This document shows positions 16,402 to 58,700 of a stretch of 64,000 bases of DNA, piece by piece. The position numbers were made by a program, and so were the translations under genes. This DNA is from Trypanosoma brucei. Its lineage: Eukaryota. The DNA lies in the NCBI GenBank assembly GCA_000002445.1, contig CM000208.1:3744001-3808000 (forward strand), read 5' to 3'. Each line of letters opens with the position of its first letter. Within the stretch, counting starts at the first letter, position 1. The notes under the pieces were generated by a model. It saw only the letters and a list, made by a program, of their open reading frames with translations. It was not told where the DNA came from and ran no database searches.

Positions 16402-16403
<2 letters not shown>

Positions 16404-16439
<36 letters not shown>

Positions 16440-16458
16440 TTATTATTATTATTATTTT
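16404..16458. repeat. Compound microsatellite (TA)16(TTA)7
   Basis: Direct reading. Confidence 0.95.
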
Positions 16459-17258: not shown

Positions 17259-17280
17259 GTGTGTGTGTGTGTGTGTGTGT
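17259..17280. repeat. (TG)11 microsatellite
   Basis: Direct reading. Another (TG)n-like run lies at about 17389-17401. Confidence 0.9.
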
Positions 17281-18036
17281 AGCAGTTTCAAATGAGTCAC
17301 AAAATAAAATACTTTTTTTTAAAAAAAAGTAAAGGTACCAAATGAAAGTGCCGTTTATGAGGGGGAGGGGAAACAAGAAGGAAGAAGAGGTGTGTGTGTG
17401 TGGGGGGGGAGAAAGTTTGTTATTATTTAATTCTACCATTTCTTTTTGGTGCTTTTCCTTATGTTCCCTGTTTTGTTTTATCACTGACCCATCTTGCGTT
17501 TCATCAACAACACACTTTACGTGTACGAACAAACCCCCACCATACACCCCAAAAAACAAAAGGGGAACCAATCCAGATGTATACATGTTGAAGGAAGAAC
17601 ACCATACACTCATACACATATATAAAATATATAAATGAATATAAGTATATTATTTTTTTTTAATTTTTCTTTGAAATATGTTTTGTCTACCCAAGTACTC
17701 GTTACAAAAATGTAGACTCCCTTTCACTGTTCTCCTCAACATTTTTTTTCGACAGTTGTTATCAATATTCGGCTTCATTTGTATCTTCTCTTTCTGTGCA
17801 CTTGTACATACGCATCTCCGTTTACATCTTACTTTCCTTCTCCTTTCCTTCGCTTCAGGAAAAAGGCTGTGGAACAAGTGAAGTAAAGAGGAGGAGGAGG
17901 AGGAGAAAACCTTCAACGGAATACGAACTTTATTCTGTTTTGTTTTTCATTTATTCCGTTTCCTTTTTTTTTTCTTTAAACGAAAAGTAACAGGAGGGAG
18001 GGAAGGAGGGGAAACGCATCGTGAGTACCAAACCAA

Positions 18037-36400: not shown

Positions 36401-37661
36401 AGGAGCTGCAACTCCACTTGCGGACGCTGACGGCACTCTGATTCGGATTGCAGAGAGACTCACGTCATCCACCGATATAGTGAGCGGAAACAATCATTTC
36501 CCCCCAATGCGAACCATTTTGAAGCTAGTAACATTGTGGGAGCAAAATGCTCAGCGACAGAGGGCATTTAATGACTGTCCTGCAGAGCCCGCGCCTTACT
36601 CCTACGGAGGATCAGATACGGTGCTGGCTAGCAACCTCGGAGCCCGCGCAGAGTTGCGGGACCACCAGGACGATTATGATATTAGCGTCTCCCACATTCA
36701 GCAACTGCTGCAGTGGCAGTGGGAATACCACCAGAACAGCTATGAGGCATTGTCTTTACCTGTATTCCGTGGAGCGCTTGTGGCAAGCAGGGGCTGCCGC
36801 TATGGGAGCGATGCATGCAGTAGTGTGGATCCCAAGGTAATGGGTGTGAATCCCCTTTCCCGGTCACTGTTGCTCGCTCTGGTTAAGTGGGGGTGGCTAG
36901 TACCGATAGACTACAAAGCGTTGCACAAACGGGCCGTGCGTCACACTGCCGTCGGCGACAACATGCTATCACGCGTTCAATTTGGCTTCGGCGTGAGGCG
37001 TCGCACACTATTTGTGGGGGTGCTGGGGTTCACATGTTACCGCGGATGGGCCCTGAGTCTTCTTATTTTGTATGCTGCGTATCGCTGCTTCAAGTTGGCT
37101 GCAGTTGGTCTACTCAGTACCGGCGCACCGTGGCCCGCGCCTTTGCACTCGGGAACTTCTATCGTGTACAGTCGCTCGGAGGCAGCAGTGGAGGCTATGC
37201 TCGAAGAGCGGCAACACTTTCTCTCGCAGTTGCTTGCCACTCGCGTACTGCAAACTCAGCACTACGTTCACAACTTTGCAAGTCGTCTGGACATGCTTCT
37301 GCGGGGATACTCACCGATCCTTTCACTTATCATTGGTATCGAACTACTGTTTGTGTGGATTTTTTTTGCGTGTTGGAGCGGCGCCGCACGCGTTTCCGCT
37401 ACCTTCGGGGTCAATATAGACCTCCTCCATCAATATATGTCGGAGCTCATCTCTCCCTTACCGCTGTACGACAACGTCATGTGGTGCCTTACCTACATGA
37501 AGCCAAATGTGGCAGGCGTGGAGACCTTTTCTCTCGTTGCCCCTCTGTTTGTCGTCCTTTGTTTGATGACCCAGTCACCACTGCGATGGGTGCTGTACAA
37601 AACATGGGAAATGTTTTTGCATGATGACGCGCTCGTCCGACGTCCGGTGCTCTCTTTCTGA
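30453..37661 (+). CDS. Very large hypothetical protein (2402 aa) with about 14 tandem 19-aa repeats (GNEEVPAGVSARRGGVAMSFNT) and a C-terminal multi-pass hydrophobic region
   Basis: 7.2-kb uninterrupted ORF with an internal 57-bp tandem array at 32841-33633. C-terminal predicted TM helices include ILSLIIGIELLFVWIFFACW and FSLVAPLFVVLCLMTQ. Long polypyrimidine tract upstream at 30066-30178. Confidence 0.65.
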   Translation: MAVMLFLEPEVDYFRMQLHHLAIPTSICIPSVPKTSRNPETRANGDQECETGGENAKVDGTVPFITQEEQNKVIQRALRVALYQRFPYESYDTLENVYILAVTHLALPLIGDTGLSYEDLATLEICEHSLPPELRHRTFPSHLNALIAQRNPPDSGSVIQDRMLDHSATQGSSEEGTGKQRFNDSYFILIPDLTDEQAMVYCKGRQYAGSMLGSGKASVGPASDAARFSRSTLWDDARHSRANALEGPSEDLLSFHVVEGDMIHYVETSQGGLSEPAPRSLRFAAFKVALSQFSFEEQQYYTKKREEVRSHGSTTTLWGSTLHSSEANEVHINKTVRTILASEVPGRWRAEEEEAMKKFFTKCNSVLRAYSTPSSQMDDASKGDGGVLAPKQPGASVSDEHKTRNVAESLGQTERLSHLYGVRRLVYSFAACDCYHLVAEDNNPLYYAKSSRATYKPHTVNVTLISDLTVSPRLTPAFSASPQRCLGARIGTTKTVEGLVVSNQPSRAQSPDIKPCTVGEKFSVGSKRHSQSPGVSPPTSGAHGSDSHAPLQRLPSNTEGYLRLTTSLVCNNVSGNLKHRKENLLEKGLSFGRLNPCHEQATEGNVKCSNEKAVCAGDVVNLFRLLATSSIAQHQLRHNVIRPVISAAVLDSSGNAGTRGALHRHYQRIKCRALLDHTWYSIPIQPVPSTQDEVQWIPIVFGSAECISDVGYRTAVHIGFFPNAEVTDDSVRGNPLRPKGTAFATDVSKQSASPGTATRSAMMPLDTNHATLQTSSSDGSKGLCFSAQLKTAVSSSNEEVPAGVSARRGGVAMSFNTGNEEVPAGVSARRGGVAMSFNKGNEEVPAGVSARRGGVAMSFNKGNEEVPAGVSARRGGVAMSFNKGNEEVPAGVSARRGGVAMSFNTGNEEVPAGVSARRGGVAMSFNTGNEEVPAGVSARRGGVAMSFNTGNEEVPAGVSARRGGVAMSFNTGNEEVPAGVSARRGGVAMSFNTGNEEVPAGVSARRGGVAMSFNTGNEEVPAGVSARRGGVAMSFNTGNEEVPAGVSARRGGVAMSFDTGNLTGVGSGNVACSSEREIVLRRSAMEGGSGWEQRCSSALFSPRPYRPTSLRVWEPGADDQSNSNRFEQGTRVTCAGPPAGFSATSTPWWRLPSQGPRRGDGVNAGRGECSTGGFCNDWQQCDTCGGRFPQGSTSNPRFCEHLQSRPTSVLNTYGKFSRSHSPHPSYNAMQQRQTQHYSTMGRDGRLRPPHTDRWDSNDVNGDVSPRTATDPLRGTFWKSPTLNPSNHRNGADPLLSPLSSPSCSGVLTPNAGRRPTIGEFAATNTRSSAFNCLASFKHHGAATETGNRTASGLENNYHGPSFCKNRAGVPTKRSVVPTFGRMDTLYDNSASGIPIYNEYGYPQGDSRVRPRGMQVMDMMYDRQWQRTQPPARLPVGAGPTNRGSLSTSWTNTTKNGVCGMRRACLPGKPPLASTRPNGASNTLNNGIAPTAVRRLTLRERIQLQRRLQQREANISAFETNIKENYCVGNDVKRFRTDVGDLSSANKTTASNGGERTTTETNSACGARTAAALAAVTFGGDPPSKGSLHSIGKDIMRLKSLTSPFAEADGVNVSFCLRDLTNAFLRMPQSEIKEYDLSKAAWLEDGVSCFVSAKPTKFNGEFENYVRHFNFHQHPFYLRERAFLFVLRVPTQPQLRLIIAVHNMHDFLSVLRQRPLRPLESWRGPHSMEEEMGGLSGRENASQLPADECNSGRTRTFLQRLCKFMKNCISGGNGGGTQQMGWAPITWGQRLALLRIQASAAVHGQAWSECTTPLLTDPVVLYSRMSFLSNRTASFAVLRCQLDTLKAFASTWIKSKRTTADENQVRMIQNRISKVESIQLGCDAPTAGIGEPKTSSSGVQAAGRVQQRLRSLPLRKRMGAPFAWKKADTTSNSVEKKGETQRQPQLKSTISSYSSSASLCRSKPEVGGANSSTPPGGVPASDAAGAATPLADADGTLIRIAERLTSSTDIVSGNNHFPPMRTILKLVTLWEQNAQRQRAFNDCPAEPAPYSYGGSDTVLASNLGARAELRDHQDDYDISVSHIQQLLQWQWEYHQNSYEALSLPVFRGALVASRGCRYGSDACSSVDPKVMGVNPLSRSLLLALVKWGWLVPIDYKALHKRAVRHTAVGDNMLSRVQFGFGVRRRTLFVGVLGFTCYRGWALSLLILYAAYRCFKLAAVGLLSTGAPWPAPLHSGTSIVYSRSEAAVEAMLEERQHFLSQLLATRVLQTQHYVHNFASRLDMLLRGYSPILSLIIGIELLFVWIFFACWSGAARVSATFGVNIDLLHQYMSELISPLPLYDNVMWCLTYMKPNVAGVETFSLVAPLFVVLCLMTQSPLRWVLYKTWEMFLHDDALVRRPVLSF
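32841..33633 (+). repeat. 57-bp coding tandem repeat, about 14 copies, inside the 30453-37661 gene
   Basis: Exact periodicity of 57 bp. Copies 2-4 carry an aca-to-aaa (T-to-K) variant. The last copy is degenerate (FDTGNLTG). The array is open in all three sense frames and on the antisense strand. Confidence 0.95.
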
Positions 37662-39511: not shown

Positions 39512-42500
39512 ATGGCTGACTCAATTGATTACGAAAACGATTTCGAAGAAATAGTACTCTGCGATGTAACTCCAGCAGAAACACAATCAACAACAAACTC
39601 TGAGCAGTCACCGGGGCCTGAAAAAAAAGAAAACGAAGAAACACCATGTACACCAACAAAAATAAAAAAAGAATCAAACTCAACAACAATCTCAAACAAG
39701 AGCGGCACGACTCCAACAAAAGAATATATAAACAACAACACAAAACAATCAACGAATGCATCCCCTTTCTTGGAATCACAGACATCGGCTAGACTTACAT
39801 CTAATCACGAAGAGCTTTCGTCAGAAGCTAAACAACAGTTCCCTGTGGAGTCACCGAAGGAAGCAACTCCGCGTGTAGCCTCTCGTGCGTCTACGAAATC
39901 GTCGTCACCTCATGAGGATCCTTCACGTGCATCATCGAAGAAATCATCGGATGGTTCAATGCAACAAGATCTTCCGTGGTTGCAATCACAGACATCGGCT
40001 AGACCTACATCCAATCACGAAGAGCTTTCGTCAGAAGCTAAACAACAGTTCCCTGTGGAGTCACCGAAGGAAGCAACTCCGCGTGTAGCCTCTCGTGCGT
40101 CTACGAAATCGTCGTCACCTCATGAGGATCCTTCACGTGCATCATCGAAGAAATCATCGGATGGTTCAATGCAACAAGATCTTCCGTGGTTGCAATCACA
40201 GACATCGGCTAGACCTACATCCAATCACGAAGAGCTTTCGTCAGAAGCTAAACAACAGTTCCCTGTGGAGTCACCGAAGGAAGCAACTCCGCATGTAGCC
40301 TCTCGTGCGTCTACGAAATCGTCGTCACCTCATGAGGATCCTTCACGTGCATCATCGAAGAAATCATCGGATGGTTCAATGCAACAAGATCTTCCGTGGT
40401 TGCAATCACAGACATCGGCTAGACCTACATCCAATCACGAAGAGCTTTCGTCAGAAGCTAAACAACAGTTCCCTGTGGAGTCACCGAAGGAAGCAACTCC
40501 GCATGTAGCCTCTCGTGCGTCTACGAAATCGTCGTCACCTCATGAGGATCCTTCACGTGCATCATCGAAGAAATCATCGGATGGTTCAATGCAACAAGAT
40601 CTTCCGTGGTTGCAATCACAGACATCGGCTAGACCTACATCCAATCACGAAGAGCTTTCGTCAGAAGCTAAACAACAGTTCCCTGTGGAGTCACCGAAGG
40701 AAGCAACTCCGCATGTAGCCTCTCGTGCGTCTACGAAATCGTCGTCACCTCATGAGGATCCTTCACGTGCATCATCGAAGAAATCATCGGATGGTTCAAT
40801 GCAACAAGATCTTCCGTGGTTGCAATCACAGACATCGGCTAGACCTACATCCAATCACGAAGAGCTTTCGTCAGAAGCTAAACAACAGTTCCCTGTGGAG
40901 TCACCGAAGGAAGCAACTCCGCGTGTAGCCTCTCGTGCGTCTACGAAATCGTCGTCACCTCATGAGGATCCTTCACGTGCATCATCGAAGAAATCATCGG
41001 ATGGTTCAATGCAACAAGATCTTCCGTGGTTGCAATCACAGACATCGGCTAGACCTACATCTAATCACGAAGAGCTTTCGTCAGAAGCTAAACAACAGTT
41101 CCCTGTGGAGTCACCGAAGGAAGCAACTCCGCGTGTAGCCTCTCGTGCGTCTACGAAATCGTCGTCACCTCATGAGGATCCTTCACGTGCATCATCGAAG
41201 AAATCATCGGATGGTTCAATGCAACAAGATCTTCCGTGGTTGCAATCACAGACATCGGCTAGACCTACATCCAATCACGAAGAGCTTTCGTCAGAAGCTA
41301 AACAACAGTTCCCTGTGGAGTCACCGAAGGAAGCAACTCCGCATGTAGCCTCTCGTGCGTCTACGAAATCGTCGTCACCTCATGAGGGTCCTTCACGTGC
41401 ATCATCGAAGAAATCATCGGATGGTTCAATGCAACAAGATCTTCCGTGGTTGCAATCACAGACATCGGCTAGACCTACATCCAATCACGAAGAGCTTTCG
41501 TCAGAAGCTAAACAACAGTTCCCTGTGGAGTCACCGAAGGAAGCAACTCCGCATGTAGCCTCTCGTGCGTCTACGAAATCGTCGTCACCTCATGAGGATC
41601 CTTCACGTGCATCATCGAAGAAATCATCGGATGGTTCAATGCAACAAGATCTTCCGTGGTTGCAATCACAGACATCGGCTAGACCTACATCCAATCACGA
41701 AGAGCTTTCGTCAGAAGCTAAACAACAGTTCCCTGTGGAGTCACCGAAGGAAGCAACTCCGCATGTAGCCTCTCGTGCGTCTACGAAATCGTCGTCACCT
41801 CATGAGGATCCTTCACGTGCATCATCGAAGAAATCATCGGATGGTTCAATGCAACAAGATCTTCCGTGGTTGCAATCACAGACATCGGCTAGACCTACAT
41901 CCAATCACGAAGAGCTTTCGTCAGAAGCTAAACAACAGTTCCCTGTGGAGTCACCGAAGGAAGCAACTCCGCGTGTAGCCTCTCGTGCGTCTACGAAATC
42001 GTCGTCACCTCATGAGGATCCTTCACGTGCATCATCGAAGAAATCATCCGATGGTTCAATGCAACAAGATCTTCCGTGGTTGCAATCACAGACATCGGCT
42101 AGACCTACATCTAATCACGAAGAGCTTTCGTCAGAAGCTAAACAACAGTTCCCTGTGGAGTCACCGAAGGAAGCAACTCCGCATGTAGCCTCTCGTGCGT
42201 CTACGAAATCGTCGTCACCTCATGAGGATCCTTCACGTGCATCATCGAAGAAATCATCCGATGGTTCAATGCAACAAGATCTTCCGTGGTTGCAATCACA
42301 GACATCGGCTAGACCTACATCCAATCACGAAGAGCTTTCGTCAGAAGCTAAACAACAGTTCCCTGTGGAGTCACCGAAGGAAGCAACTCCGCATGTAGCC
42401 TCTCGTGCGTCTACGAAATCGTCGTCACCTCATGAGGATCCTTCACGTGCATCATCGAAGAAATCATCGGATGGTTCAATGCAACAAGATCTTCCGTGGT

Positions 42501-45500
42501 TGCAATCACAGACATCGGCTAGACCTACATCCAATCACGAAGAGCTTTCGTCAGAAGCTAAACAACAGTTCCCTGTGGAGTCACCGAAGGAAGCAACTCC
42601 GCATGTAGCCTCTCGTGCGTCTACGAAATCGTCGTCACCTCATGAGGATCCTTCACGTGCATCATCGAAGAAATCATCGGATGGTTCAATGCAACAAGAT
42701 CTTCCGTGGTTGCAATCACAGACATCGGCTAGACCTACATCCAATCACGAAGAGCTTTCGTCAGAAGCTAAACAACAGTTCCCTGTGGAGTCACCGAAGG
42801 AAGCAACTCCGCGTGTAGCCTCTCGTGCGTCTACGAAATCGTCGTCACCTCATGAGGATCCTTCACGTGCATCATCGAAGAAATCATCGGATGGTTCAAT
42901 GCAACAAGATCTTCCGTGGTTGCAATCACAGACATCGGCTAGACCTACATCCAATCACGAAGAGCTTTCGTCAGAAGCTAAACAACAGTTCCCTGTGGAG
43001 TCACCGAAGGAAGCAACTCCGCATGTAGCCTCTCGTGCGTCTACGAAATCGTCGTCACCTCATGAGGATCCTTCACGTGCATCATCGAAGAAATCATCGG
43101 ATGGTTCAATGCAACAAGATCTTCCGTGGTTGCAATCACAGACATCGGCTAGACCTACATCCAATCACGAAGAGCTTTCGTCAGAAGCTAAACAACAGTT
43201 CCCTGTGGAGTCACCGAAGGAAGCAACTCCGCATGTAGCCTCTCGTGCGTCTACGAAATCGTCGTCACCTCATGAGGATCCTTCACGTGCATCATCGAAG
43301 AAATCATCGGATGGTTCAATGCAACAAGATCTTCCGTGGTTGCAATCACAGACATCGGCTAGACCTACATCTAATCACGAAGAGCTTTCGTCAGAAGCTA
43401 AACAACAGTTCCCTGTGGAGTCACCGAAGGAAGCAACTCCGCGTGTAGCCTCTCGTGCGTCTACGAAATCGTCGTCACCTCATGAGGATCCTTCACGTGC
43501 ATCATCGAAGAAATCATCGGATGGTTCAATGCAACAAGATCTTCCGTGGTTGCAATCACAGACATCGGCTAGACCTACATCCAATCACGAAGAGCTTTCG
43601 TCAGAAGCTAAACAACAGTTCCCTGTGGAGTCACCGAAGGAAGCAACTCCGCGTGTAGCCTCTCGTGCGTCTACGAAATCGTCGTCACCTCATGAGGATC
43701 CTTCACGTGCATCATCGAAGAAATCATCGGATGGTTCAATGCAACAAGATCTTCCGTGGTTGCAATCACAGACATCGGCTAGACCTACATCTAATCACGA
43801 AGAGCTTTCGTCAGAAGCTAAACAACAGTTCCCTGTGGAGTCACCGAAGGAAGCAACTCCGCATGTAGCCTCTCGTGCGTCTACGAAATCGTCGTCACCT
43901 CATGAGGATCCTTCACGTGCATCATCGAAGAAATCATCGGATGGTTCAATGCAACAAGATCTTCCGTGGTTGCAATCACAGACATCGGCTAGACCTACAT
44001 CTAATCACGAAGAGCTTTCGTCAGAAGCTAAACAACAGTTCCCTGTGGAGTCACCGAAGGAAGCAACTCCGCGTGTAGCCTCTCGTGCGTCTACGAAATC
44101 GTCGTCACCTCATGAGGATCCTTCACGTGCATCATCGAAGAAATCATCGGATGGTTCAATGCAACAAGATCTTCCGTGGTTGCAATCACAGACATCGGCT
44201 AGACCTACATCTAATCACGAAGAGCTTTCGTCAGAAGCTAAACAACAGTTCCCTGTGGAGTCACCGAAGGAAGCAACTCCGCATGTAGCCTCTCGTGCGT
44301 CTACGAAATCGTCGTCACCTCATGAGGATCCTTCACGTGCATCATCGAAGAAATCATCGGATGGTTCAATGCAACAAGATCTTCCGTGGTTGCAATCACA
44401 GACATCGGCTAGACCTACATCCAATCACGAAGAGCTTTCGTCAGAAGCTAAACAACAGTTCCCTGTGGAGTCACCGAAGGAAGCAACTCCGCGTGTAGCC
44501 TCTCGTGCGTCTACGAAATCGTCGTCACCTCATGAGGATCCTTCACGTGCATCATCGAAGAAATCATCCGATGGTTCAATGCAACAAGATCTTCCGTGGT
44601 TGCAATCACAGACATCGGCTAGACCTACATCTAATCACGAAGAGCTTTCGTCAGAAGCTAAACAACAGTTCCCTGTGGAGTCACCGAAGGAAGCAACTCC
44701 GCATGTAGCCTCTCGTGCGTCTACGAAATCGTCGTCACCTCATGAGGATCCTTCACGTGCATCATCGAAGAAATCATCGGATGGTTCAATGCAACAAGAT
44801 CTTCCGTGGTTGCAATCACAGACATCGGCTAGACCTACATCCAATCACGAAGAGCTTTCGTCAGAAGCTAAACAACAGTTCCCTGTGGAGTCACCGAAGG
44901 AAGCAACTCCGCGTGTAGCCTCTCGTGCGTCTACGAAATCGTCGTCACCTCATGAGGATCCTTCACGTGCATCATCGAAGAAATCATCGGATGGTTCAAT
45001 GCAACAAGATCTTCCGTGGTTGCAATCACAGACATCGGCTAGACCTACATCTAATCACGAATTGCTTTCGTCAGAAGCTAAACAACAGTTCCCTGTGGAG
45101 TCACCGAAGGAAGCAACTCCGCATGTAGCCTCTCGTGCGTCTACGAAATCGTCGTCACCTCATGAGGATCCTTCTCGTGTTGTTTGTGATGTGACCTCGC
45201 AGGAACTCTTGGAGCATGTTGTCTTGAATGATATTGATGAATCTCCTCTTCATATTTCCTGTGCTGCCGGATTTCGCTCGTTCGATTTCGGATCTTCTGT
45301 ATCTGGGAGTAAGGTAAGTCCTGCGACTTTGAGGGATTATGCTGCACGGTGTCATATGGTACGAATAGAAAACAATCTGAGCAAGGAGGATATTCGTCTA
45401 GTTTCTCATTCAACCGCCAATGATAGGGAATCTAAAATGTTAAGCACCGGTGATAGCAGTGGTGTCCTACATTCATCGAAAGTTATGCTGGTCGAAGTGC

Positions 45501-48500
45501 TGGCATCGGAAAATCCTCCTCTGCTGTCCGAAATGTCTTTAAGTAATGTAGAATGTGTAAGCGCAGAAATAAATACAGATCCTTCATCCGCTTCCACTAC
45601 CCACACGAAAGAACCGAAACAAGAACCTTCACGACCCTTAAAAAAGCAAGCGGAATCGCCAGATGAAATATCTCAAGAGCCAACTAAGGAATCTGAAAAG
45701 CAGGAGGAATCACGCCCATCATCTGCAACACGAGATGAATCATCTCAAATTTCAACTAAGGAATCAGAAAAGCAGAAGGAATCACGCGTATATTCGGAAT
45801 CGCCAGATGAAATATCTCAAGAGCCAACTAAGGAATCAGAGAAGCAGGAGGAATCACGCGTATATTCGGAATCGCCAGATGAAATATCTCAAGAGCCAAC
45901 TAAGGAATCAGAGAAGCAGGAGGAATCACGCGTATATTCGGAATCGCCAGATGAAATATCTCAAGAGCCAACTAAGGAATCTGAAAAGCAGGAGGAATCA
46001 CGCCCATCATCTGCAACACGAGATGAATCATCTCAAATTTCAACTAAGGAATCTGAAAAGCAGGAGGAATCACGCCCATCATCTGCAACACGAGATGAAT
46101 CATCTCAAATTTCAACTAAGGAATCTGAAAAGCAGGAGGAATCACGCCCATCATCTGCAACACGAGATGAATCATCTCAAATTTCAACTAAGGAATCTGA
46201 AAAGCAGGAGGAATCACGCGTATATTCGGAATCGCCAGATGAAATATCTCAAGAGCCAACTAAGGAATCTGAAAAGCAGGAGGAATCACGCCCATCATCT
46301 GCAACACGAGATGAATCATCTCAAATTTCTAAGGAATCTGAAAAGCAGGAGGAATCACGCGTATATTCGGAATCGCCAGATGAAATATCTCAAGAGCCAA
46401 CTAAGGAATCTGAAAAGCAGGAGGAATCACGCGTATATTCGGAATCGCCAGATGAAATATCTCAAATGTCAACTAAGGAATCAGAGAAGCAGGAGGAATC
46501 ACGCGTATATTCGGAATCGCCAGATGAAATATCTCAAATGTCAACTAAGGAATCAGAGAAGCAGGAGGAATCACGCGTATATTCGGAATCGCCAGATGAA
46601 ATATCTCAAGAGCCAACTAAGGAATCAGAGAAGCAGGAGGAATCACGCGTATATTCGGAATCGCCAGATGAAATATCTCAAGAGCCAACTAAGGAATCTG
46701 AAAAGCAGGAGGAATCACGCGTATATTCGGAATCGCCAGATGAAATATCTCAAGAGCCAACTAAGGAATCAGAGAAGCAGGAGGAATCACGCGTATATTC
46801 GGAATCGCCAGATGAAATATCTCAAGAGCCAACTAAGGAATCTGAAAAGCAGGAGGAATCACGCGTATATTCGGAATCGCCAGATGAAATATCTCAAGAG
46901 CCAACTAAGGAATCTGAAAAGCAGGAGGAATCACGCCCATCATCTGCAACACGAGATGAATCATCTCAAGAGCCAACTAAGGAATCAGAGAAGCAGGAGG
47001 AATCACGCCCATCATCTGCAACACGAGATGAATCATCTCAAATTTCAACTAAGGAATCTGAAAAGCAGGAGGAATCACGCGTATATTCGGAATCGCCAGA
47101 TGAATCATCTCAAATTTCAACTAAGGAATCTGAAAAGCAGGAGGAATCACGCCCATCATCTGCAACACGAGATGAATCATCTCAAATGTCAACTAAGGAA
47201 TCTGAAAAGCAGGAGGAATCACGCCCATCATCTCAAATGTCAAGTAAGGAATCTGAAAAGCAGAAGGAAAAGGCGGTTTCATCCTCGATGTCTAGTGCCT
47301 CTTCACTGTCTTCGGAACCTAGGAATAGATATTCAGGCAAGCTGTCTTCGAGTCGTAAATCCATTTCTTCGGTGGGGCGGAGGAACGGAGAGCATTTTTC
47401 TTCGTCAAGGGATGGAAGCGGTGAAGGCACGTCGAGTAGTAATGAGTCTTTGACATCTTTAGAAGGTGAAGAAGGCTCTGAGGAAGATTCGTCGACGTCT
47501 TTCTCCACCCGTTCTAGTGGCTCTGGCGGTAGTAGAAAAAGAAAGATTGGTAGTGGAAAGGTTGTTGAATCTGTTTATCGCTCAACTAGTGGTGTGTCAA
47601 CAGCACTAACAATAGGGACCAAAGATGGACTTAAGGTACGGAAGCAGAACAAGGGTGAAGAATGTGCGGATGAAATGAGCAACAAAGCGATGACGAAGGA
47701 TTCTTGTGCCGGATGTTTTCCCCATCCTTTGTTACCCAAAGTCACAGGAACGAATAAGGAGTACGGGAATGGCGAGGCCGGTAGCGGTCCTTGCGTATGG
47801 AAAACCGCTAATGCTAGTCTGTACCGTGGTCCATTGAGGGCAGGAAACAAATCGCTCGGTAGCAGACACTACTCGCCGCGAACGGTGTATCTGGGGAAGC
47901 CTGAGGCCAGGGCGAGAGCCGGGGCATTTGGTCTCTCCGCCGCAGGGAGGTTGCGTAAGGCTTACAAGTCGCCCTCAGCACCCTCAGGTGAAGAGCAGAA
48001 CCGCAGCGGAGGGACTTCCCCCACATCATTAAGGAGAAATATCGCAAGGGTAAAAAGTGAGCTTATGAGAGTTCGTCAAAACATAAAGGCACTTATTCGA
48101 AAAAGAACCCCTAGGCGCGCGCTTAAGAGGTCTGAACAAAACTTGAAGTACGTGGATGTGGAGTCTCTACGGCGAGAGCACGAGCACCTGCTGCAGCTTG
48201 TTCAAATTTGGGAAACAGGAGAAATAAATATCGACCTGCTTGTGGATAGTGCCAATAGGGAGCTGCGACGCGCAAAAGAAAAGCTTGCCGAGGCCAAAGA
48301 GCGGAGGCGTAGGGTTGCATCCGAAAGGCGGCACGCATCACTGGTGATTTCACGGATGGTGAAGGAACGAACAGCGGATGATGATGATAAAAGCAATCGG
48401 CAGCGAAAGGAGGGCATGTATGCTCGCCTTACACTTCAAGGTAAGGTGGATGAACTACTTGAAAAAATCAGCACAGCGCGCGGCACCTCGTCAAAACTTA

Positions 48501-49870
48501 GTGATAAGATTAAGTCACTTGAGAGTCACATGAGGCAGGAAAAATTAACGGATATGAAACCTGAGGAATATCGTGAGTTGCAAAAGATGGTTGAAGGTAA
48601 TCGAAAACTTATTCATAGACTCAATACTGCCATCATAATTGCTGGGGGTTCTCAGGTACCCTTGACAGTTACGGCTGAAATGAACAATGACGAAGACTTG
48701 AGTGGTGTCAAGTTCCCGGGAAAGGCGAAGCTTGATGCTGAGGCGGAGAAACTAGCGAGTAGGGTAAGTCGAATGGACGCGCGAATCGCGGAACTTGTAG
48801 AAAAGGTTAGCGTGTTGTTCCCCAACGATCCAAAGATTCGGAGACGTAGTATAAGCAACATGGAGGGGGTAGGTGGGCGGATGGTGAGCTACGAGCATTC
48901 GTCAAGCCCTGATGGCAGTCGGCATTTTGCGGCAGGTCAGTCCCCGTCGAAGGCATTCCTTGGGGCACCAGGTGCTTCTATCCGAAGGTCGAGGCTGCCG
49001 ATGCTAAGCGATGCCACAGGATCCTCGAACCCCCTCAACACGTGGCATTCATCCGATTCGTGGAGCCCTGGGAGGGATGCCACCGGACGGCAGGGGTCTC
49101 CCAAGAAAGGGAAAGGATTGGGGGGAGCGGATCGGACCCTACTGCCATCTGTAAGGAAGGTGCCACCAACGTTCATTACATCCTACAAGAATGAGAGCAC
49201 GACGTCAACCGTTGAAGAAAGCACGCATAGTCGAACCGCGGTGAAGAACATTCCACAGGACAATGGAGCAAAATCAGGCTCGAAGGATGCAGCGAAGGAG
49301 CGCAAGCCCGAAAAAGAAACAGAAAGGGAGGTCAAATCAGCCGTTGGTAACGGTGGATCGGAAATCCATAATTGCGAAGCTCCCGGCTCCGTCGCCAGCA
49401 GTTCAGGTGAAGCGGACGAAAGCCGTACCCTAAGTACCGGTAGTATGGATAAGAGCTCCAACAGCAACATTCATACCACACCAAACCAAAAGGGTCACAA
49501 GCCTGCGAAACAGGAAGCGGATGAACCTTCGGAACGGTACACGACACCGCTTTCCGAGCAGTCGACCGGGCGGTCACAACAGTACACCAGCCCCTCATCG
49601 CAACTGTCGTCGGCGACATCTCCATCCTCAGTGGAGCAAGCAAGACCGTCGGCGCGATCGTCATCAGCTTTGTCAGGAGCCTCCGAGCGGTCGTCTGCCT
49701 CTTCTCCACTATCCACTTCAATCCGCAAGGAGGACGGTCGCATGTCCAACCAGGAAGAGGAACGGGCTCCTGACAAATCGCCATCGGCAGGTGATGACGT
49801 CTCGACAATACCAGACGAGGTGGTTGAGGGGGAAGACTCCGGAAGGGAAACACCCGTCTGGTTACGATAA
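39512..49870 (+). CDS. Giant repetitive protein (3452 aa). It carries about 26 near-identical 70-aa repeats, then about 22 24-aa acidic repeats, then a coiled-coil and Ser-rich C-terminal region. It looks like a repetitive antigen or cytoskeleton-associated protein
   Basis: 10.4-kb ORF. It contains a 210-bp tandem array at 39769-45174 and a 72-bp tandem array at 45653-47270. The C-terminal segment around 48000-48800 is heptad-like (KALIRKRTPRRALKRSEQNLKYVDVESLRREHEHLLQL...). Confidence 0.75.
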   Translation: MADSIDYENDFEEIVLCDVTPAETQSTTNSEQSPGPEKKENEETPCTPTKIKKESNSTTISNKSGTTPTKEYINNNTKQSTNASPFLESQTSARLTSNHEELSSEAKQQFPVESPKEATPRVASRASTKSSSPHEDPSRASSKKSSDGSMQQDLPWLQSQTSARPTSNHEELSSEAKQQFPVESPKEATPRVASRASTKSSSPHEDPSRASSKKSSDGSMQQDLPWLQSQTSARPTSNHEELSSEAKQQFPVESPKEATPHVASRASTKSSSPHEDPSRASSKKSSDGSMQQDLPWLQSQTSARPTSNHEELSSEAKQQFPVESPKEATPHVASRASTKSSSPHEDPSRASSKKSSDGSMQQDLPWLQSQTSARPTSNHEELSSEAKQQFPVESPKEATPHVASRASTKSSSPHEDPSRASSKKSSDGSMQQDLPWLQSQTSARPTSNHEELSSEAKQQFPVESPKEATPRVASRASTKSSSPHEDPSRASSKKSSDGSMQQDLPWLQSQTSARPTSNHEELSSEAKQQFPVESPKEATPRVASRASTKSSSPHEDPSRASSKKSSDGSMQQDLPWLQSQTSARPTSNHEELSSEAKQQFPVESPKEATPHVASRASTKSSSPHEGPSRASSKKSSDGSMQQDLPWLQSQTSARPTSNHEELSSEAKQQFPVESPKEATPHVASRASTKSSSPHEDPSRASSKKSSDGSMQQDLPWLQSQTSARPTSNHEELSSEAKQQFPVESPKEATPHVASRASTKSSSPHEDPSRASSKKSSDGSMQQDLPWLQSQTSARPTSNHEELSSEAKQQFPVESPKEATPRVASRASTKSSSPHEDPSRASSKKSSDGSMQQDLPWLQSQTSARPTSNHEELSSEAKQQFPVESPKEATPHVASRASTKSSSPHEDPSRASSKKSSDGSMQQDLPWLQSQTSARPTSNHEELSSEAKQQFPVESPKEATPHVASRASTKSSSPHEDPSRASSKKSSDGSMQQDLPWLQSQTSARPTSNHEELSSEAKQQFPVESPKEATPHVASRASTKSSSPHEDPSRASSKKSSDGSMQQDLPWLQSQTSARPTSNHEELSSEAKQQFPVESPKEATPRVASRASTKSSSPHEDPSRASSKKSSDGSMQQDLPWLQSQTSARPTSNHEELSSEAKQQFPVESPKEATPHVASRASTKSSSPHEDPSRASSKKSSDGSMQQDLPWLQSQTSARPTSNHEELSSEAKQQFPVESPKEATPHVASRASTKSSSPHEDPSRASSKKSSDGSMQQDLPWLQSQTSARPTSNHEELSSEAKQQFPVESPKEATPRVASRASTKSSSPHEDPSRASSKKSSDGSMQQDLPWLQSQTSARPTSNHEELSSEAKQQFPVESPKEATPRVASRASTKSSSPHEDPSRASSKKSSDGSMQQDLPWLQSQTSARPTSNHEELSSEAKQQFPVESPKEATPHVASRASTKSSSPHEDPSRASSKKSSDGSMQQDLPWLQSQTSARPTSNHEELSSEAKQQFPVESPKEATPRVASRASTKSSSPHEDPSRASSKKSSDGSMQQDLPWLQSQTSARPTSNHEELSSEAKQQFPVESPKEATPHVASRASTKSSSPHEDPSRASSKKSSDGSMQQDLPWLQSQTSARPTSNHEELSSEAKQQFPVESPKEATPRVASRASTKSSSPHEDPSRASSKKSSDGSMQQDLPWLQSQTSARPTSNHEELSSEAKQQFPVESPKEATPHVASRASTKSSSPHEDPSRASSKKSSDGSMQQDLPWLQSQTSARPTSNHEELSSEAKQQFPVESPKEATPRVASRASTKSSSPHEDPSRASSKKSSDGSMQQDLPWLQSQTSARPTSNHELLSSEAKQQFPVESPKEATPHVASRASTKSSSPHEDPSRVVCDVTSQELLEHVVLNDIDESPLHISCAAGFRSFDFGSSVSGSKVSPATLRDYAARCHMVRIENNLSKEDIRLVSHSTANDRESKMLSTGDSSGVLHSSKVMLVEVLASENPPLLSEMSLSNVECVSAEINTDPSSASTTHTKEPKQEPSRPLKKQAESPDEISQEPTKESEKQEESRPSSATRDESSQISTKESEKQKESRVYSESPDEISQEPTKESEKQEESRVYSESPDEISQEPTKESEKQEESRVYSESPDEISQEPTKESEKQEESRPSSATRDESSQISTKESEKQEESRPSSATRDESSQISTKESEKQEESRPSSATRDESSQISTKESEKQEESRVYSESPDEISQEPTKESEKQEESRPSSATRDESSQISKESEKQEESRVYSESPDEISQEPTKESEKQEESRVYSESPDEISQMSTKESEKQEESRVYSESPDEISQMSTKESEKQEESRVYSESPDEISQEPTKESEKQEESRVYSESPDEISQEPTKESEKQEESRVYSESPDEISQEPTKESEKQEESRVYSESPDEISQEPTKESEKQEESRVYSESPDEISQEPTKESEKQEESRPSSATRDESSQEPTKESEKQEESRPSSATRDESSQISTKESEKQEESRVYSESPDESSQISTKESEKQEESRPSSATRDESSQMSTKESEKQEESRPSSQMSSKESEKQKEKAVSSSMSSASSLSSEPRNRYSGKLSSSRKSISSVGRRNGEHFSSSRDGSGEGTSSSNESLTSLEGEEGSEEDSSTSFSTRSSGSGGSRKRKIGSGKVVESVYRSTSGVSTALTIGTKDGLKVRKQNKGEECADEMSNKAMTKDSCAGCFPHPLLPKVTGTNKEYGNGEAGSGPCVWKTANASLYRGPLRAGNKSLGSRHYSPRTVYLGKPEARARAGAFGLSAAGRLRKAYKSPSAPSGEEQNRSGGTSPTSLRRNIARVKSELMRVRQNIKALIRKRTPRRALKRSEQNLKYVDVESLRREHEHLLQLVQIWETGEINIDLLVDSANRELRRAKEKLAEAKERRRRVASERRHASLVISRMVKERTADDDDKSNRQRKEGMYARLTLQGKVDELLEKISTARGTSSKLSDKIKSLESHMRQEKLTDMKPEEYRELQKMVEGNRKLIHRLNTAIIIAGGSQVPLTVTAEMNNDEDLSGVKFPGKAKLDAEAEKLASRVSRMDARIAELVEKVSVLFPNDPKIRRRSISNMEGVGGRMVSYEHSSSPDGSRHFAAGQSPSKAFLGAPGASIRRSRLPMLSDATGSSNPLNTWHSSDSWSPGRDATGRQGSPKKGKGLGGADRTLLPSVRKVPPTFITSYKNESTTSTVEESTHSRTAVKNIPQDNGAKSGSKDAAKERKPEKETEREVKSAVGNGGSEIHNCEAPGSVASSSGEADESRTLSTGSMDKSSNSNIHTTPNQKGHKPAKQEADEPSERYTTPLSEQSTGRSQQYTSPSSQLSSATSPSSVEQARPSARSSSALSGASERSSASSPLSTSIRKEDGRMSNQEEERAPDKSPSAGDDVSTIPDEVVEGEDSGRETPVWLR
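39769..45174 (+). repeat. 210-bp coding tandem repeat, about 25.7 copies, more than 98% identical between copies
   Basis: Period of 210 bp seen directly. ORF-track entries recur every 210 bp from 39885 to 45128. Only about five variable sites exist, mainly the cgt/cat (R/H) toggle and synonymous tcc/tct and tcg/tcc changes. Confidence 0.95.
45653..47270 (+). repeat. 72-bp coding tandem repeat, about 22 copies, of two interleaved unit types
   Basis: The string atcacgcg recurs at 45781 and 45853, giving a 72-bp period. The two 24-aa unit types are ESRVYSESPDEISQEPTKESEKQE and ESRPSSATRDESSQISTKESEKQE. Chimeric units occur, and one 69-bp unit has a 3-bp deletion at about 46321-46335. Confidence 0.95.
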
Positions 49871-54778: not shown

Positions 54779-55759
54779 CGTTTCCTTTCCCTTTTTTCTC
54801 TGTTGTGTTTGAGGGGAGAAGGAGTAATCCGGAGAACAAGCAAAGACGAAATAGTCATGGGTGAAAATAGAGAAGGATGAGCGAATGCAAAAACGGGAGG
54901 GGAAAGAAAGGGCGGTGTACGAGCCCTTCATGTCTGCACATATCTCAAGAAAGGGGGGAAACTGACGGGGGTTGCGAAGAAAGATATGGTTCTGAAGGGT
55001 TTTTGTTAGTGCCGCTGTTAGTTGCAACCTCGCGGAGGCGGGGAAACGTGGCAGCTCTCATATAATATAACTCCGACGGTCACCCGTCGTTTCCTCTTGC
55101 TCCTTTCCTACCTTCACTGTCGCTGTTACGCCCTCACTATTTCTGTTGCCTCTACGTCTGCCCCGTTTTTGCCTGTTTACTTAAAGAGAAGGTGGGGGAT
55201 TGTTTGCCGCAGTGTGTGTGTGGGGAGGGGCACTTCTATGACACCACACCCTATCCGTACTTTCTTTTCCTTCCGTGTTCCACTGGCGGAGACCCGTGAT
55301 GTCTCTGGGAGCGCATTAAGGGGTGACGAGTTTGGAATATCTCGCATTACTGCGCGGTGACGACTCAAATGTTCTGGTTTAAGGCAGAACGAAGCCTGTG
55401 GCTGCACTGAGTGTAGACCGTCCTACTGTCTTTTGTTTTACTTCCGTCTTTCTCCCACTCATTTCACCTTTTTAATTCGTGTGCTTGTGTGTATCTGGTT
55501 GCCAGTAGTAGGCATACAGAACAGTGCAATAGCGAGGAAAGTGCTGTAACGAAGTGCAGGGCTGCTTTGTTCTTTGTCACAGGAGCCCCGCAGCCCTTCG
55601 CACCTAACCGTATAAATACGTTAGTAACCACATAACAAGTACAAAACTAGATAGACGTTGGGGTGGGAGTAAACGGAGAGAAAAGGGAAGAAACATAGAT
55701 CACTTCACCATTCCACCTCACTCATTCACAATTTCAGCTGCGGTTTCTCACCCAAACCT

Positions 55760-58700
55760 ATGACAAGTGCTGCCGCACTCCGACCCCCTGTGACACTGCT
55801 GTGGGATGCCAGGGTCAGTTGCTCCACACAGGAGAAGGGGAAGCAAGACGGTAGTTCGCCGGTGTTGGATTCGGAGCCCCATATTATCTCGCTGGGTGAG
55901 CTAGATGTGCTCAGCTGCAGCGATGAGGAATTAGAACTTCACCTTAATGGCATCAGGGATCTTGTACAAAGCAGACCGGACTCATGGCTGAAAAAGAAAG
56001 GTGGAAAGGGATTCTCAAAAAGGCAATTGGCCCTCATACAGGATGAGTTAGTGCACTACCAGGGGGTGCTGAAGCAAGCAAATGAAATACTTAGTTGGCT
56101 ACTCTGTCGGCTTAACGACCGCATAAGTGTGCTGCGCCGTGATGAGTCCATGTTGCGCGAGTATTACGAGAGCCTCGAACGTGGAACGGGAATTGATGAG
56201 GATTACAACATGCACAAGAAAGACAAATTTCACCGGAGATTGCGGGAGTCAAAGCGGAGGGCGCCCATCAAACGATATTCGAAGGAGCTAGAATTTTTGA
56301 CTTCGCGCCACACGCAGTTAGTGCAGCTGTTGACCACAGTCGAGTCAGAAGAACGCGCTTACAATGTGCGCGGGGCGGACGAGGACACCAGCCGGCGAAG
56401 TAAATTGTTGAGCCCCGAAGATACGAAAATTGAGGAAATATATAGGGACGCCGCCGCCGCTGGTGGGGGTAAAGCAGTTACACTAATGCGCATGCGTGCA
56501 CTGCAACCACTGATCAGAAAAGAACAGGAACTTCGCTTTGTGCCACCGCTCTTAGCGTCAGATGTCCACTCACGTTTACGGAAGGAAATTATACTACCCT
56601 TCTCCGTCCGCGTACTGGCGCTAAAAATTGAAAAGGGTAATATCATTGGTGACAAATTTGTCCAGTGGTATATTAACACAGTGGTGGATCCCCTGACAAT
56701 GGCCCAATTAGTAGAGCTTGTGCCGCGCGAGCACCTCGTGACAACTACAGTCCGGCTCGCGAAGGTCTGCGATGCGTACCCGCAGTCGCGGCGTGCCCAA
56801 CCCCTTCCGGATATATCACACGTCGTTTTGGAGTCCGTTTCTGAAGGTCGTATTGATGCCTTTGCGTCGCTCGTTCTTTCCACCTCAGCGACGTGCACGC
56901 GCGCTCTTCGGGACAAGGATGAAGAAGCCATTATTCTTTTCTCTGCTGTAATAACCGCGCAGGTGGAAGTTATACGGCGTATTATATCAGTTGGGTTCTA
57001 CAACACTAATGCCCTCAATGTCTGGCTATTCTTAAATCCCAACAACAAGTGTAACTACTATAAGACGTACGTACACGAAACAACGAACAATGTAAAGAAA
57101 TATCTAAGCTCGCTGTCACGCAGCAGTCGTGATCACCTAAGTACGGAGGGCGCAGAAGAAGATGTTATCGAAATGGCACAAATCACCCTGACACAAAAAT
57201 GGGAGGAGTGGGACAGCTCGCTTCTCACCGGCGGGTTGGGCGCCAGTCTGCGACACTTCTTAAATAACCGCCTCCTATGGAAAAGGAATACATCAACCCC
57301 AAAACCTCGCAGCAGTGCAAGTAGAGGAGGGAGGGACAGTGCAGCAGAGGGGTGGGAAAAGGGGCACGGGATGGACGTCAGTCTCAGCGTCAGTTTTACT
57401 CCCTCCCTTCTGAACAAACTTACTTCCGGGGACCCAACGTTCTCGTCACTGCTTTCGAGAAGGAAATTTGATCGCCTGCCGATGTCCGCCCCAAAGTGCG
57501 CCGTTCTCCCTGCTACCAGCACACCGATGTTACGTCGTGTAGATCCGTGGGGTTACACACCTCTTGAGACAACTGGAGCACATCTGCTGCTTGTTGGGGA
57601 CACGTCTACAGTCAATGCGCACGTGGTGCGGCTCCCAGCACGGCGGATGACCAAGTGGAATGAGCACGTCCCTAACGAGCCACAGGATGTGCGGATGCAA
57701 CGAGATCAAATGCAAACTTTAATAGACTCACATGGCACTCGGTTTTACTATGAAGTGCACATCTCGTTATTCTTCTTGATTAACGATGTGCCCCTGAGCC
57801 CTTCACCGTTTGAGTACACAGCCGCAGCCTCGGAAAATGCGACAAGTGAAGGTCTACCTTCTCAACAGCGGTGTACGGCTTACGTTGGTTGGTGTTCTGA
57901 GGAGTGCGTGGCGGCTGCTGACGGTTACTCCTCAAACCAGCCGCTTGGCAGTGACACCTCTTCTATAGGTATCTCGTTCGACGTCGTACACAGACATAGG
58001 TTGGACGAGCTCACAGAGGAAGTTATTCTGCGACCCATGAAACACGCAGTGGGGTGCACCAACACCATCGAGGTAGCTAATGATGGTGGAGAAATGCAAT
58101 CGGTTTCATTGATTCGGATGTACTTTCAAAGCTGGAACCGGACTCCCGATGGCGCGGATGAGAATGGTTCTGTATCGGATGATGCCATCTCCTTCGGAGA
58201 GAGCAGAACATCGTGGGTGTATTCCGGATTAGGAACCTTCAGTTCCGAAGGCTTTTCCTTGGAAAAACCCCGACAGCCAAGTGAGACCGTCGTCCCTTTT
58301 GTGAAATTAGTCGGAGAAGGAAATGAAGAGAGCGCGACCGAAGAGGACGATTCTGACGACATACCTCGTGTAATTCGCAATGTCTTTAGGTTGGCAGGTG
58401 TACCGGTATACAAGTCGCAATCAATTGTTATTGGGTGCCACGTTGACATGACAACACGATCAGCATCCTACACTGTTAATGGGGTAAGTCTTGGGACAGT
58501 TTTCACAGCACTTCCTTCAGCAACAGGACTCCGACCAGCGGTGAGCTTGCAGGTTTCCGAGGAAATGAAGTCGATCCTCCAAGGTGTGAATCAGAGTGAT
58601 TCCACGGTCGTCCGTTTCGTTTTTGACAGACACTTACTACTTTCGCACCACATGGAGTTGTTGGAACCTGGCGCAGTAGAAATCGAGTCGACCACCCGCA

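What the first reader, a model, noticed from the sequence alone, without database searches (positions are those of the whole stretch)
45653..47270. Second, unrelated 72-bp (24-aa) acidic repeat array in the same gene, with two unit types and recombinant chimeras
Two unit families alternate non-randomly: ESRVYSESPDEISQEPTKESEKQE and ESRPSSATRDESSQISTKESEKQE. Chimeric units occur, for example RPSSATRDESSQEPT, RVYSESPDESSQIST and ..SQMST.. variants. One unit carries an in-frame 3-bp deletion (SSQISKESE). This is direct evidence of unequal crossing-over or gene conversion between units. Two distinct arrays in one protein (70-aa units, then 24-aa units, then a coiled-coil tail) is an unusual architecture.
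Basis: seen in the sequence. Interest (0 to 1): 0.6.

Follow-up and report, generated by a model that had tools for sequence, protein, structure and literature searches.

The report
Recombining acidic repeats in trypanosome protein
This is a real 72-base repeat array inside a known giant Trypanosoma brucei gene (Tb927.10.15700) that encodes a floppy, acidic linker; its repeat units are visibly shuffled by recombination and vary in number between strains, which is ordinary for repeat proteins of these parasites.

Summary
Window 45651-47269 holds 21.9 head-to-tail copies of a 72-bp (24-aa) unit, in frame within ORF 39512-49870. There are two main unit types, several chimeric units, one 69-bp unit and a shortened last unit.

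The ORF is T. brucei TREU927 Tb927.10.15700. Its length (3452 aa) and mass (377.2 kDa) match a published table, and gene order is conserved. The literature lists it as a hypothetical repetitive protein at the flagellum tip.

Units differ in only four small blocks, and these occur in nearly all combinations. Linkage between variable sites decays inside the 72-bp unit (r2 0.93 to 0.07), and 71 of 136 site pairs show all four combinations. That pattern requires exchange between units.

Two other T. brucei-group assemblies carry 45.7 and at least 54 units in different mosaics, although the adjacent 2.6-kb tail is 99.6% identical. One has a 15-unit internal duplication.

Positional orthologues in T. 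cruzi lack arrays. T. vivax has unrelated arrays of its own.

The array is strongly acidic and predicted to be disordered. The claimed non-random alternation is not significant, and a two-array architecture is not unusual in parasite proteins. The array is a coding minisatellite and of low novelty.

The parts
39512..49870 (+). ORF of 3452 aa = T. brucei TREU927 Tb927.10.15700 (hypothetical, repetitive, reported at the flagellum tip)
   Evidence: ORF. Length 3452 aa and mass 377,230 Da match the entry for Tb927.10.15700 in the supplement of PMC8141408 (3452 aa, 377,240 Da). The neighbouring genes fit: APC10 upstream, and Mito_carr plus the PSD13/PCI gene (Tb927.10.15720) downstream.
39530..39550 (+). 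Conserved N-terminal acidic motif YENDFEE (YEDDFE in orthologues)
   Evidence: Read directly from the translation and the orthologue sequences. Alignment consensus.
39770..45179 (+). First array: 210-bp (70-aa) units, 25.8 copies, 99% identical
   Evidence: The L001 assembly has about 12.8 copies (gene product length).
45180..45650 (+). Non-repetitive spacer between the two arrays (about 157 aa)
   Evidence: Translation. No Pfam family. Also present in L001.
45651..47269 (+). The finding: 72-bp (24-aa) acidic Ser/Thr-rich array, with a partial first unit, 20 full units, one 69-bp unit and a 54-bp last unit
   Evidence: AlphaFold2 of six units shows no secondary structure, mean pLDDT 55.
46283..46351 (+). 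69-bp unit with an in-frame 3-bp deletion (ISTK becomes ISK)
46424..46567 (+). Two V-head units that carry the MS block (ATGTCA) between V-type flanking markers, the pattern expected from a short conversion patch
   Evidence: haplotype strings.
46928..46999 (+). Chimeric unit: P-head (PSSATRDESS) with EP tail
47072..47215 (+). Two chimeric units: V-head with S/IS tail (47072-47143) and P-head with MS tail (47144-47215)
47216..47269 (+). Degenerate terminal unit, 18 bp shorter than in L001 and L002, identical in T. equiperdum OVI
47975..48829 (+). Region conserved across trypanosomatids, predicted as long alpha-helices (coiled-coil-like)
   Evidence: HMMER matches cover tail residues 236-520. 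AlphaFold2 mean pLDDT 71.6, with helices of up to 103 residues. No PDB fold match.
49841..49867 (+). Conserved C-terminal motif GRETPVWLR (GRxTPxWL in orthologues)

Best explanation
The feature is a coding minisatellite inside Tb927.10.15700 of Trypanosoma brucei. It encodes about 540 residues of strongly acidic, Ser/Thr-rich, intrinsically disordered linker. The linker lies between a first 70-aa array and a conserved helical C-terminal region.

Shown: the array evolves by exchange between its own units. Out-of-register recombination changes copy number and duplicates multi-unit blocks. Short-tract gene conversion shuffles four small variable blocks among units, and this produces the chimeric units.

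Shown: an invariant core (ES.. S...DE.SQ...K.SEKQE) is kept in all 117 units of three assemblies, while unit order and number are free to vary.

Inferred: the array acts as a flexible, negatively charged spacer or bristle of loosely constrained length in a protein reported at the flagellum tip. It is not a set of ordered binding modules.
For: Identity and context:
- The organism and gene are identified.
- Gene order APC10 - gene - Mito_carr - PSD13 is conserved in T. vivax and T. cruzi.

Recombination between units:
- Units differ only in blocks A (9 linked SNPs), B, C and D. All combinations of A and C occur.
- 71 of 136 site pairs show four gametes.
- Mean r2 falls from 0.93 (<= 8 bp) to 0.07 (> 45 bp) in the window. 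The same decay is seen in L001 and L002.
- The array has 21.9 copies in the window, 45.7 in L001 and at least 54 in L002.
- Only 2 of 47 DNA unit variants are shared with the window.
- The adjoining 2601-bp tail is 99.6% identical with no indels.
- In L001 a 10-unit block is 97.6% identical to another block 15 units away, against a mean of 88%.

Protein properties:
- pI 4.4, net charge -82, 7% hydrophobic residues, on the disordered side of the charge-hydropathy boundary.
- AlphaFold2 gives no secondary structure, pLDDT 55.
- No Pfam family matches.

Lineage-specific arrays: the T. cruzi orthologue (857 aa) has no tandem repeats, and T. vivax has unrelated 102-bp and 78-bp arrays.

Literature:
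- 'Hypothetical, Tip' in the AC1 proximity proteome (PMC8141408).
- '350 kDa repetitive protein' (bioRxiv 10.1101/2020.03.02.973057).
Against: - Copy numbers come from assemblies, and tandem arrays are often mis-sized. L002 has an N gap at the array's 5' edge. T. equiperdum OVI breaks inside the array. The nearby gene p197 went from 3.5 to about 35 repeats on re-measurement.
- The spacer function is inferred from composition and one single-sequence structure prediction. No experiment on this array exists in the literature I could search.
- The source of the tip localisation is left blank in the published table.
- Unequal crossover and gene conversion cannot be told apart from static sequences.
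Confidence: 0.75

Rival explanations
1. Assembly artefact. The chimeric units and the copy number arise from mis-piled Sanger reads, or from merging two haplotypes in the TREU927 reference, and not from biology.
For: - Arrays in this genome are known to be mis-assembled. The nearby gene p197 was assembled with 3.5 repeats against about 26-35 measured.
- L002 has a gap at the array, and the OVI contig ends inside it.
- The IS block and the V-I-MS unit are seen only in the window.
Against: - The same classes of chimera (V-head with S, P-head with EP, P-head with MS) recur many times in two independent assemblies.
- The odd 54-bp terminal unit is base-for-base identical in T. equiperdum OVI.
- The array keeps the reading frame throughout, including the 69-bp unit.
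- There are no N and no frame breaks.
Confidence: 0.07
2. The mixed units arose by independent point mutations in diverging units, with no exchange between units.
For: Some variants are single-base changes. ATT to ATG turns IS into MS. Rare variants such as D for E, or G for R, appear in L001 and L002.
Against: - The head types differ at 9 linked sites, and EP differs from IS at 4 sites.
- These multi-site blocks are found intact in all combinations. Four-gamete pairs rise from 3% at <= 8 bp to 100% at > 30 bp.
- Recurrent mutation cannot recreate whole blocks.
Confidence: 0.03
3. The V and P units are distinct functional modules, for example different docking or phosphorylation sites, and their ordered alternation is selected.
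For: - The V unit has an SP site and one S/T-x-x-D/E site. The P unit has two S/T-x-x-D/E sites.
- Both head types persist in all three assemblies.
Against: - Unit order is statistically indistinguishable from random in all three arrays.
- Order and number are not conserved between strains.
- A third head type (ASSATR) dominates elsewhere and is absent from the window.
- Orthologues in T. cruzi, T. grayi and T. rangeli lack the array altogether.
Confidence: 0.08
4. The array is maintained mainly as an immunodominant B-cell epitope or decoy, as proposed for many tandem-repeat proteins of trypanosomatids.
For: - High-copy, hydrophilic tandem repeats are typical of serodiagnostic tandem-repeat antigens in these parasites (my own knowledge of the Goto et al. 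tandem-repeat antigen work; background in papers listed).
- The arrays are present in the salivarian species T. brucei and T. vivax and absent in T. cruzi.
Against: - The protein has no signal peptide-like N-terminus.
- It was recovered as an intracellular flagellar-tip proximity hit.
- Antigenicity was not tested and would probably be a by-product.
Confidence: 0.07

Closest known systems
Coding minisatellites with interspersed variant repeats (human MVR-type minisatellites; Plasmodium CSP major/minor repeats; other parasite repeat antigens)
   Same: Head-to-tail units of tens of bases. A few variant unit types are interspersed. Copy number and interspersion pattern differ between alleles. Mosaic units arise from unequal exchange or conversion. 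The reading frame is preserved.
   Different: Here the exchange is resolved to sub-unit blocks within 72 bp. No mutation rate, polarity or meiotic versus mitotic origin can be inferred from three assemblies.
p197 (Tb927.10.15750), repeat-containing filament of the T. brucei tripartite attachment complex, five gene numbers downstream on the same chromosome
   Same: A giant T. brucei protein with a lineage-specific array of about 26-35 near-identical units. The T. cruzi orthologue has no repeats. Repeat number was under-estimated in assemblies (bioRxiv 10.1101/2023.03.06.531305).
   Different: p197 units are 175-182 aa and predicted alpha-helical, and they set a physical distance. The 24-aa units here are predicted to be unstructured and are heterogeneous (90% identity). 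No distance-setting role is known.
Trypanosomatid tandem-repeat (TR) antigens (e.g. GM6, MARP, FRA, TcD-type proteins)
   Same: Large intracellular or cytoskeletal/flagellar proteins with high-scoring tandem arrays of hydrophilic units.
   Different: No serological data exist for this protein. No sequence similarity of the unit to anything was found.
T. vivax positional orthologue KAH8611558.1
   Same: Same locus (APC10 - gene - Mito_carr - PSD13), the same helical core, and an array inserted between the N-terminal motif and the helical core. Its units also come in two variants (R/Y).
   Different: Its units are 102 bp and 78 bp and show no similarity to the T. brucei units beyond composition. 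The arrays therefore seem to have arisen independently.

Membership tests
Tb927.10.15700 (T. brucei TREU927 gene) | Protein length and mass as in the reference annotation | tested here: met
   3452 aa and 377,230 Da computed, against 3452 aa and 377,240 Da in the supplement of PMC8141408.
Tb927.10.15700 (T. brucei TREU927 gene) | Chromosomal position two genes upstream of Tb927.10.15720 (PCI/proteasome subunit) and next to APC10 | tested here: met
   Pfam on the neighbouring genes. Tb927.10.15720 is described as a PCI/proteasome homologue. APC10 = Tbg972.10.19130. Loci on T. b. gambiense chromosome record FN554973.1.
Coding minisatellite evolving by unequal recombination / gene conversion | Tandem head-to-tail units of 10-100 bp that keep the reading frame | tested here: met
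   Period 72, 21.9 copies, 0% indels. A continuous ORF.
Coding minisatellite evolving by unequal recombination / gene conversion | Copy-number and interspersion-pattern polymorphism between alleles or strains, with conserved flanks | tested here: met
   21.9, 45.7 and at least 54 units, only 2 shared unit variants, tail 99.6% identical. Caveat: these are assembly-based sizes.
Coding minisatellite evolving by unequal recombination / gene conversion | Recombinant (mosaic) units: four-gamete violations and linkage decay among units | tested here: met
   71 of 136 pairs have four gametes. r2 falls from 0.93 to 0.07 across the unit.
Coding minisatellite evolving by unequal recombination / gene conversion | Multi-unit out-of-register duplications | tested here: met
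   L001: a 10-unit block 97.6% identical at a lag of 15 units, against a mean of 88%. None of 4 or more units in the window array itself.
p197-like structural repeat spacer | Repeat units form a continuous alpha-helix | tested here: not met
   AlphaFold2 of six units: no helix, mean pLDDT 55.
p197-like structural repeat spacer | The two termini are anchored to two different structures, so that repeat number sets a distance | not testable with these tools
   This needs N- and C-terminal tagging and imaging.
Trypanosomatid tandem-repeat B-cell antigens | High-scoring tandem repeat in a protein-coding gene | tested here: met
   TRF scores 2133 (72-bp array) and 10617 (210-bp array). The threshold used in that literature is recalled from memory and was not checked.
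Trypanosomatid tandem-repeat B-cell antigens | Recognised by sera of infected hosts | not testable with these tools
   No serology was found in the searchable literature.
Bacterial serine-rich repeat adhesins (PMC8141408 says four of its flagellum-tip proximity proteins are annotated this way, without naming them) | Signal peptide, SRR domains and cell-wall anchor detectable by family models | tested here: not met
   No Pfam family at E <= 0.1 on the whole protein or on the array. The N-terminus MADSIDYENDFEE is acidic, not signal-like. The resemblance is compositional only.

The most novel reading that the evidence does not exclude
Salivarian trypanosomes may have independently inserted long disordered arrays at the same site of this flagellar-tip protein. 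T. brucei has 70-aa and 24-aa arrays, T. vivax has an unrelated 34-aa array, and T. cruzi, T. grayi and T. rangeli have none.

Within T. brucei the two arrays change in opposite directions: 25.8 x 70 aa plus about 22 x 24 aa in the window, against about 12.8 x 70 aa plus 45.7 x 24 aa in L001. This hints that the total length or charge of the disordered region is the selected quantity. That would make it a tunable spacer or bristle at the flagellum tip, analogous to the way p197 repeat number sets a distance in the tripartite attachment complex.
Probability: 0.12. Interest if true: 0.5.

Novelty: new member of a known kind. Interest (0 to 1): 0.22.

Why it matters
It matters modestly.

- The array is a clean worked example of recombination between units, resolved to blocks of a few bases inside a 72-bp coding repeat.
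- It is a potentially very informative strain-typing marker for the T. brucei group. Two of 47 unit variants are shared between the window and the other assemblies, while the flank is 99.6% identical.
- It flags Tb927.10.15700 as a gene whose reference length should not be trusted without long reads. That affects proteomics, because spectral counts and 'enrichment' are inflated by repeats, as one preprint already suspected.
- If the total length of the disordered region proves to be under selection, the gene would join p197 as a case where repeat number is a structural parameter of trypanosome cell architecture.

Tried and rejected
- Word-indexed protein searches with the 866-aa tail and with the array returned nothing. 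These results are uninformative, because the tool missed even the T. b. gambiense orthologue that exists at L002. Low-complexity words probably swamped it.
- Exact look-up of the full protein and of the L002 product found neither in the collection.
- A literature search for four peptide strings from the units gave 0 papers. Searches for orthologue gene IDs and for assembly accession GCA_003543875 also gave 0 papers. I recall L001 as a T. equiperdum/T. brucei-group long-read assembly, but that strain identity is unverified.
- The TrypTag supplements held as text do not contain the gene ID.
- I asked whether the gene is p197, a nearby gene with about 26 repeats. It is not: p197 is Tb927.10.15750 and has 175-182-aa helical units.
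- A Foldseek search of the helical core against the PDB gave no match with E < 1.
- I tested for a relationship between the 24-aa unit and the 70-aa unit or the T. vivax units. None exceeds composition.
- TRF reported a weak 36-bp sub-period (53-57% matches). I judged it too weak to count as an ancestral half-unit.
- The overlapping 596-aa ORF at 45663-47453 in another frame is a by-product of stop-free repeats.
- Two ORFs of identical length (704 aa) at 12865 and 18037 looked like a duplication. They are unrelated: one is a FYVE protein and the other a WD40 protein.

Full report
**What is there**

Tandem Repeats Finder reports a 72-bp period at window 45651-47224: 21.9 copies, 90% matches, no indels, score 2133. 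It lies downstream of a much more homogeneous 210-bp array at 39770-45179 (25.8 copies, 99%). Both arrays sit in one frame of a single ORF, 39512-49870 (+), 3452 aa.

I split the array on the invariant anchor GAATCACGC. This gives:
- a partial first unit (45653-45706);
- 20 full units;
- one 69-bp unit (46283-46351, ISTK becomes ISK);
- a degenerate 54-bp last unit (47216-47269).

**Anatomy of the variation**

The 20 full units differ at only 18 columns, and 17 of these fall in four blocks. The remaining column, 70, is a single G/A difference that gives E or K as the last residue of the first full unit.
- Block A, columns 10-26: nine perfectly linked differences, VYSESP versus PSSATR.
- Block B, columns 34-35: I versus S.
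- Block C, columns 43-46: EP, IS or MS.
- Block D, columns 60 and 63: synonymous, TCAGAG versus TCTGAA.

Every combination of A with C occurs. Of 136 pairs of common variable sites, 71 show all four gametes. Mean r2 falls from 0.93 for sites <= 8 bp apart to 0.07 for sites > 45 bp apart. The recombining blocks differ at 2-9 nucleotides each, so recurrent mutation cannot explain the pattern. Exchange between units is required.

The two units at 46424-46567 carry the MS block between V-type markers on both sides. That is what a conversion patch shorter than about 25 bp would give.

The order of V and non-V units is not distinguishable from random: 9 runs against 11.65 expected, P = 0.17. The claim that the two families 'alternate non-randomly' is therefore not supported.

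**Organism and gene**

All long ORFs lie on one strand and have no introns. The neighbouring genes are eukaryotic: APC10, a mitochondrial carrier, a PSD13/PCI proteasome subunit and a DAG-kinase-like protein.

The mitochondrial carrier is identical to T. brucei proteins EAN78929.1 and CBH16816.1. It maps to T. b. gambiense record FN554973.1 and to a second T. brucei-group assembly, GCA_003543875.1.

- APC10 is Tbg972.10.19130 (PMC3606461).
- The PCI gene is Tb927.10.15720 (PMC4320536).
- This places the finding's gene at Tb927.10.15700.
- A supplementary table of PMC8141408 lists that ID with 3452 residues and 377,240 Da. The window ORF is 3452 aa and 377,230 Da.

The window is therefore the TREU927 reference and the gene is Tb927.10.15700.

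Published mentions are few:
- 'Hypothetical, Tip' in the AC1-APEX2 flagellum-tip proximity proteome. The source column for the localisation is blank.

No paper in the searchable library contains the unit peptides.

**Comparison between strains**

L001 (GCA_003543875.1) has a complete array of 45.7 units. L002 (T. b. gambiense) has at least 54 units and an N gap at the array's 5' edge.

- Among 47 distinct DNA unit variants in the three arrays, only two (both V-EPT) are shared with the window.
- The IS block is private to the window.
- A third head type, ASSATR, is absent from the window but is the commonest head type in L002 and second to VYSESP (16 versus 14 units) in L001.
- The 2601-bp tail next to the array is 99.6% identical with no indels.
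- In L001 a 10-unit block is 97.6% identical to the block 15 units downstream, against a mean of 88%. This is direct evidence of a 1080-bp out-of-register duplication.
- The first array varies in the opposite direction: 25.8 copies in the window against about 12.8 in L001, whose gene product is 3104 aa.
- A T. equiperdum OVI contig starts inside the array. It carries a terminal 54-bp unit identical to the window's. That odd unit is therefore not a TREU927 assembly error.

**Comparison between species**

An exhaustive HMMER search of the 866-aa tail finds relatives only in trypanosomatids:
- T. vivax, 1523 aa;
- T. grayi, 933 aa;
- T. cruzi, 857 aa;
- T. rangeli, 730 aa;
- L. mexicana, 1311 aa, a weaker match.

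The T. vivax and T. cruzi genes lie between APC10 and the mitochondrial carrier, so they are positional orthologues.

Three features are conserved:
- an N-terminal YEDDFE motif;
- a helical core (AlphaFold2 pLDDT 71.6, helices up to 103 residues; no PDB fold match);
- a C-terminal GRxTPxWL motif.

T. cruzi has no tandem repeat in the gene. T. vivax has its own 102-bp x 16 and 78-bp x 5.4 arrays. Neither the T. vivax units nor the 70-aa unit resemble the 24-aa unit beyond composition. The arrays are lineage-specific insertions into a tolerant region.

**What the array encodes**

The array has 30% D+E, 14% K+R, 30% S+T and 7% hydrophobic residues. Its pI is 4.4 and its net charge about -82. It lies well on the disordered side of the charge-hydropathy boundary. 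AlphaFold2 gives no secondary structure, mean pLDDT 55. No Pfam family matches.

Across 117 units from the three assemblies, E2... positions S2, S6, E11, S13, Q14, K18, S20, E21, K22 and Q23 are invariant, and positions 1, 3, 10, 19 and 24 are nearly so.

**Interpretation**

The best-supported reading is a coding minisatellite that encodes a disordered polyanionic linker. Unequal recombination and short-tract conversion both homogenise and shuffle it. Its length and unit order are only loosely constrained.

- Shown: the recombination.
- Inferred: the spacer function.
- Unlikely: assembly artefact as an explanation for the chimeras, given the independent assemblies.
- Still uncertain: the copy number in the reference, as the history of p197 shows.

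A two-array architecture is not unusual in parasite repeat proteins (the T. vivax orthologue).

**Verdict**

The recombination interpretation is supported. The claims of non-random alternation and unusual architecture are not. The array is a new, undescribed example of a well-known kind of feature in an already annotated gene. Interest is low to moderate.

Noticed in passing
window 39770-45179: The first array (210 bp x 25.8, 99% identical) varies mainly at one codon (ATPRVAS versus ATPHVAS). It has only about 12.8 copies in assembly L001, the opposite direction of change to the 72-bp array.
   Followed up: partly
window 32839-33634 (inside ORF 30453-37661): The upstream 2402-aa gene carries its own 66-bp x 12.1 array at 98% identity. 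There are overlapping spurious ORFs on both strands at 32756-33706.
   Followed up: no
L011 8367-9997 and 12152-12572 (T. vivax orthologue): T. vivax has independent 102-bp x 16 and 78-bp x 5.4 arrays. The first also comes in two unit variants (SEVRTS and SEVYTS). The second runs to the end of the called gene, which lacks the conserved C-terminal TPxWL motif, so the gene model or the assembly may be truncated.
   Followed up: partly
L002 about 2087-2162 (T. b. gambiense FN554973.1): An N-run gap sits directly at the 5' edge of the 72-bp array. The 210-bp array and the spacer are missing from the called 2166-aa product, so the gambiense gene model is incomplete.
   Followed up: partly
L014 1-120 (T. 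equiperdum OVI, CZPT02001200.1): The contig begins inside the 72-bp array, and the annotated 877-aa protein starts at an internal Met of the last unit. This shows that short-read assemblies break at this array.
   Followed up: yes
window 16001-18000: A markedly AT-rich stretch (GC 0.357, AT skew -0.25) lies between the FYVE-domain gene (12865-14979) and the WD40 gene (18037-20151). It is probably a long intergenic or UTR region.
   Followed up: no
window 55700-64000 and beyond: A very large SPRY/ankyrin gene (about 3458 aa in the other assemblies) begins downstream of the PSD13 gene and runs off the window. p197 (Tb927.10.15750), another T. brucei-specific repeat giant, should lie just beyond it.
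   Followed up: no
window 39530-39550 and 49841-49867: Short terminal motifs (N-terminal YEDDFE-like, C-terminal GRxTPxWL) are conserved from Leishmania to T. brucei in this otherwise fast-evolving protein. They may be the real interaction or anchoring sites.
   Followed up: partly
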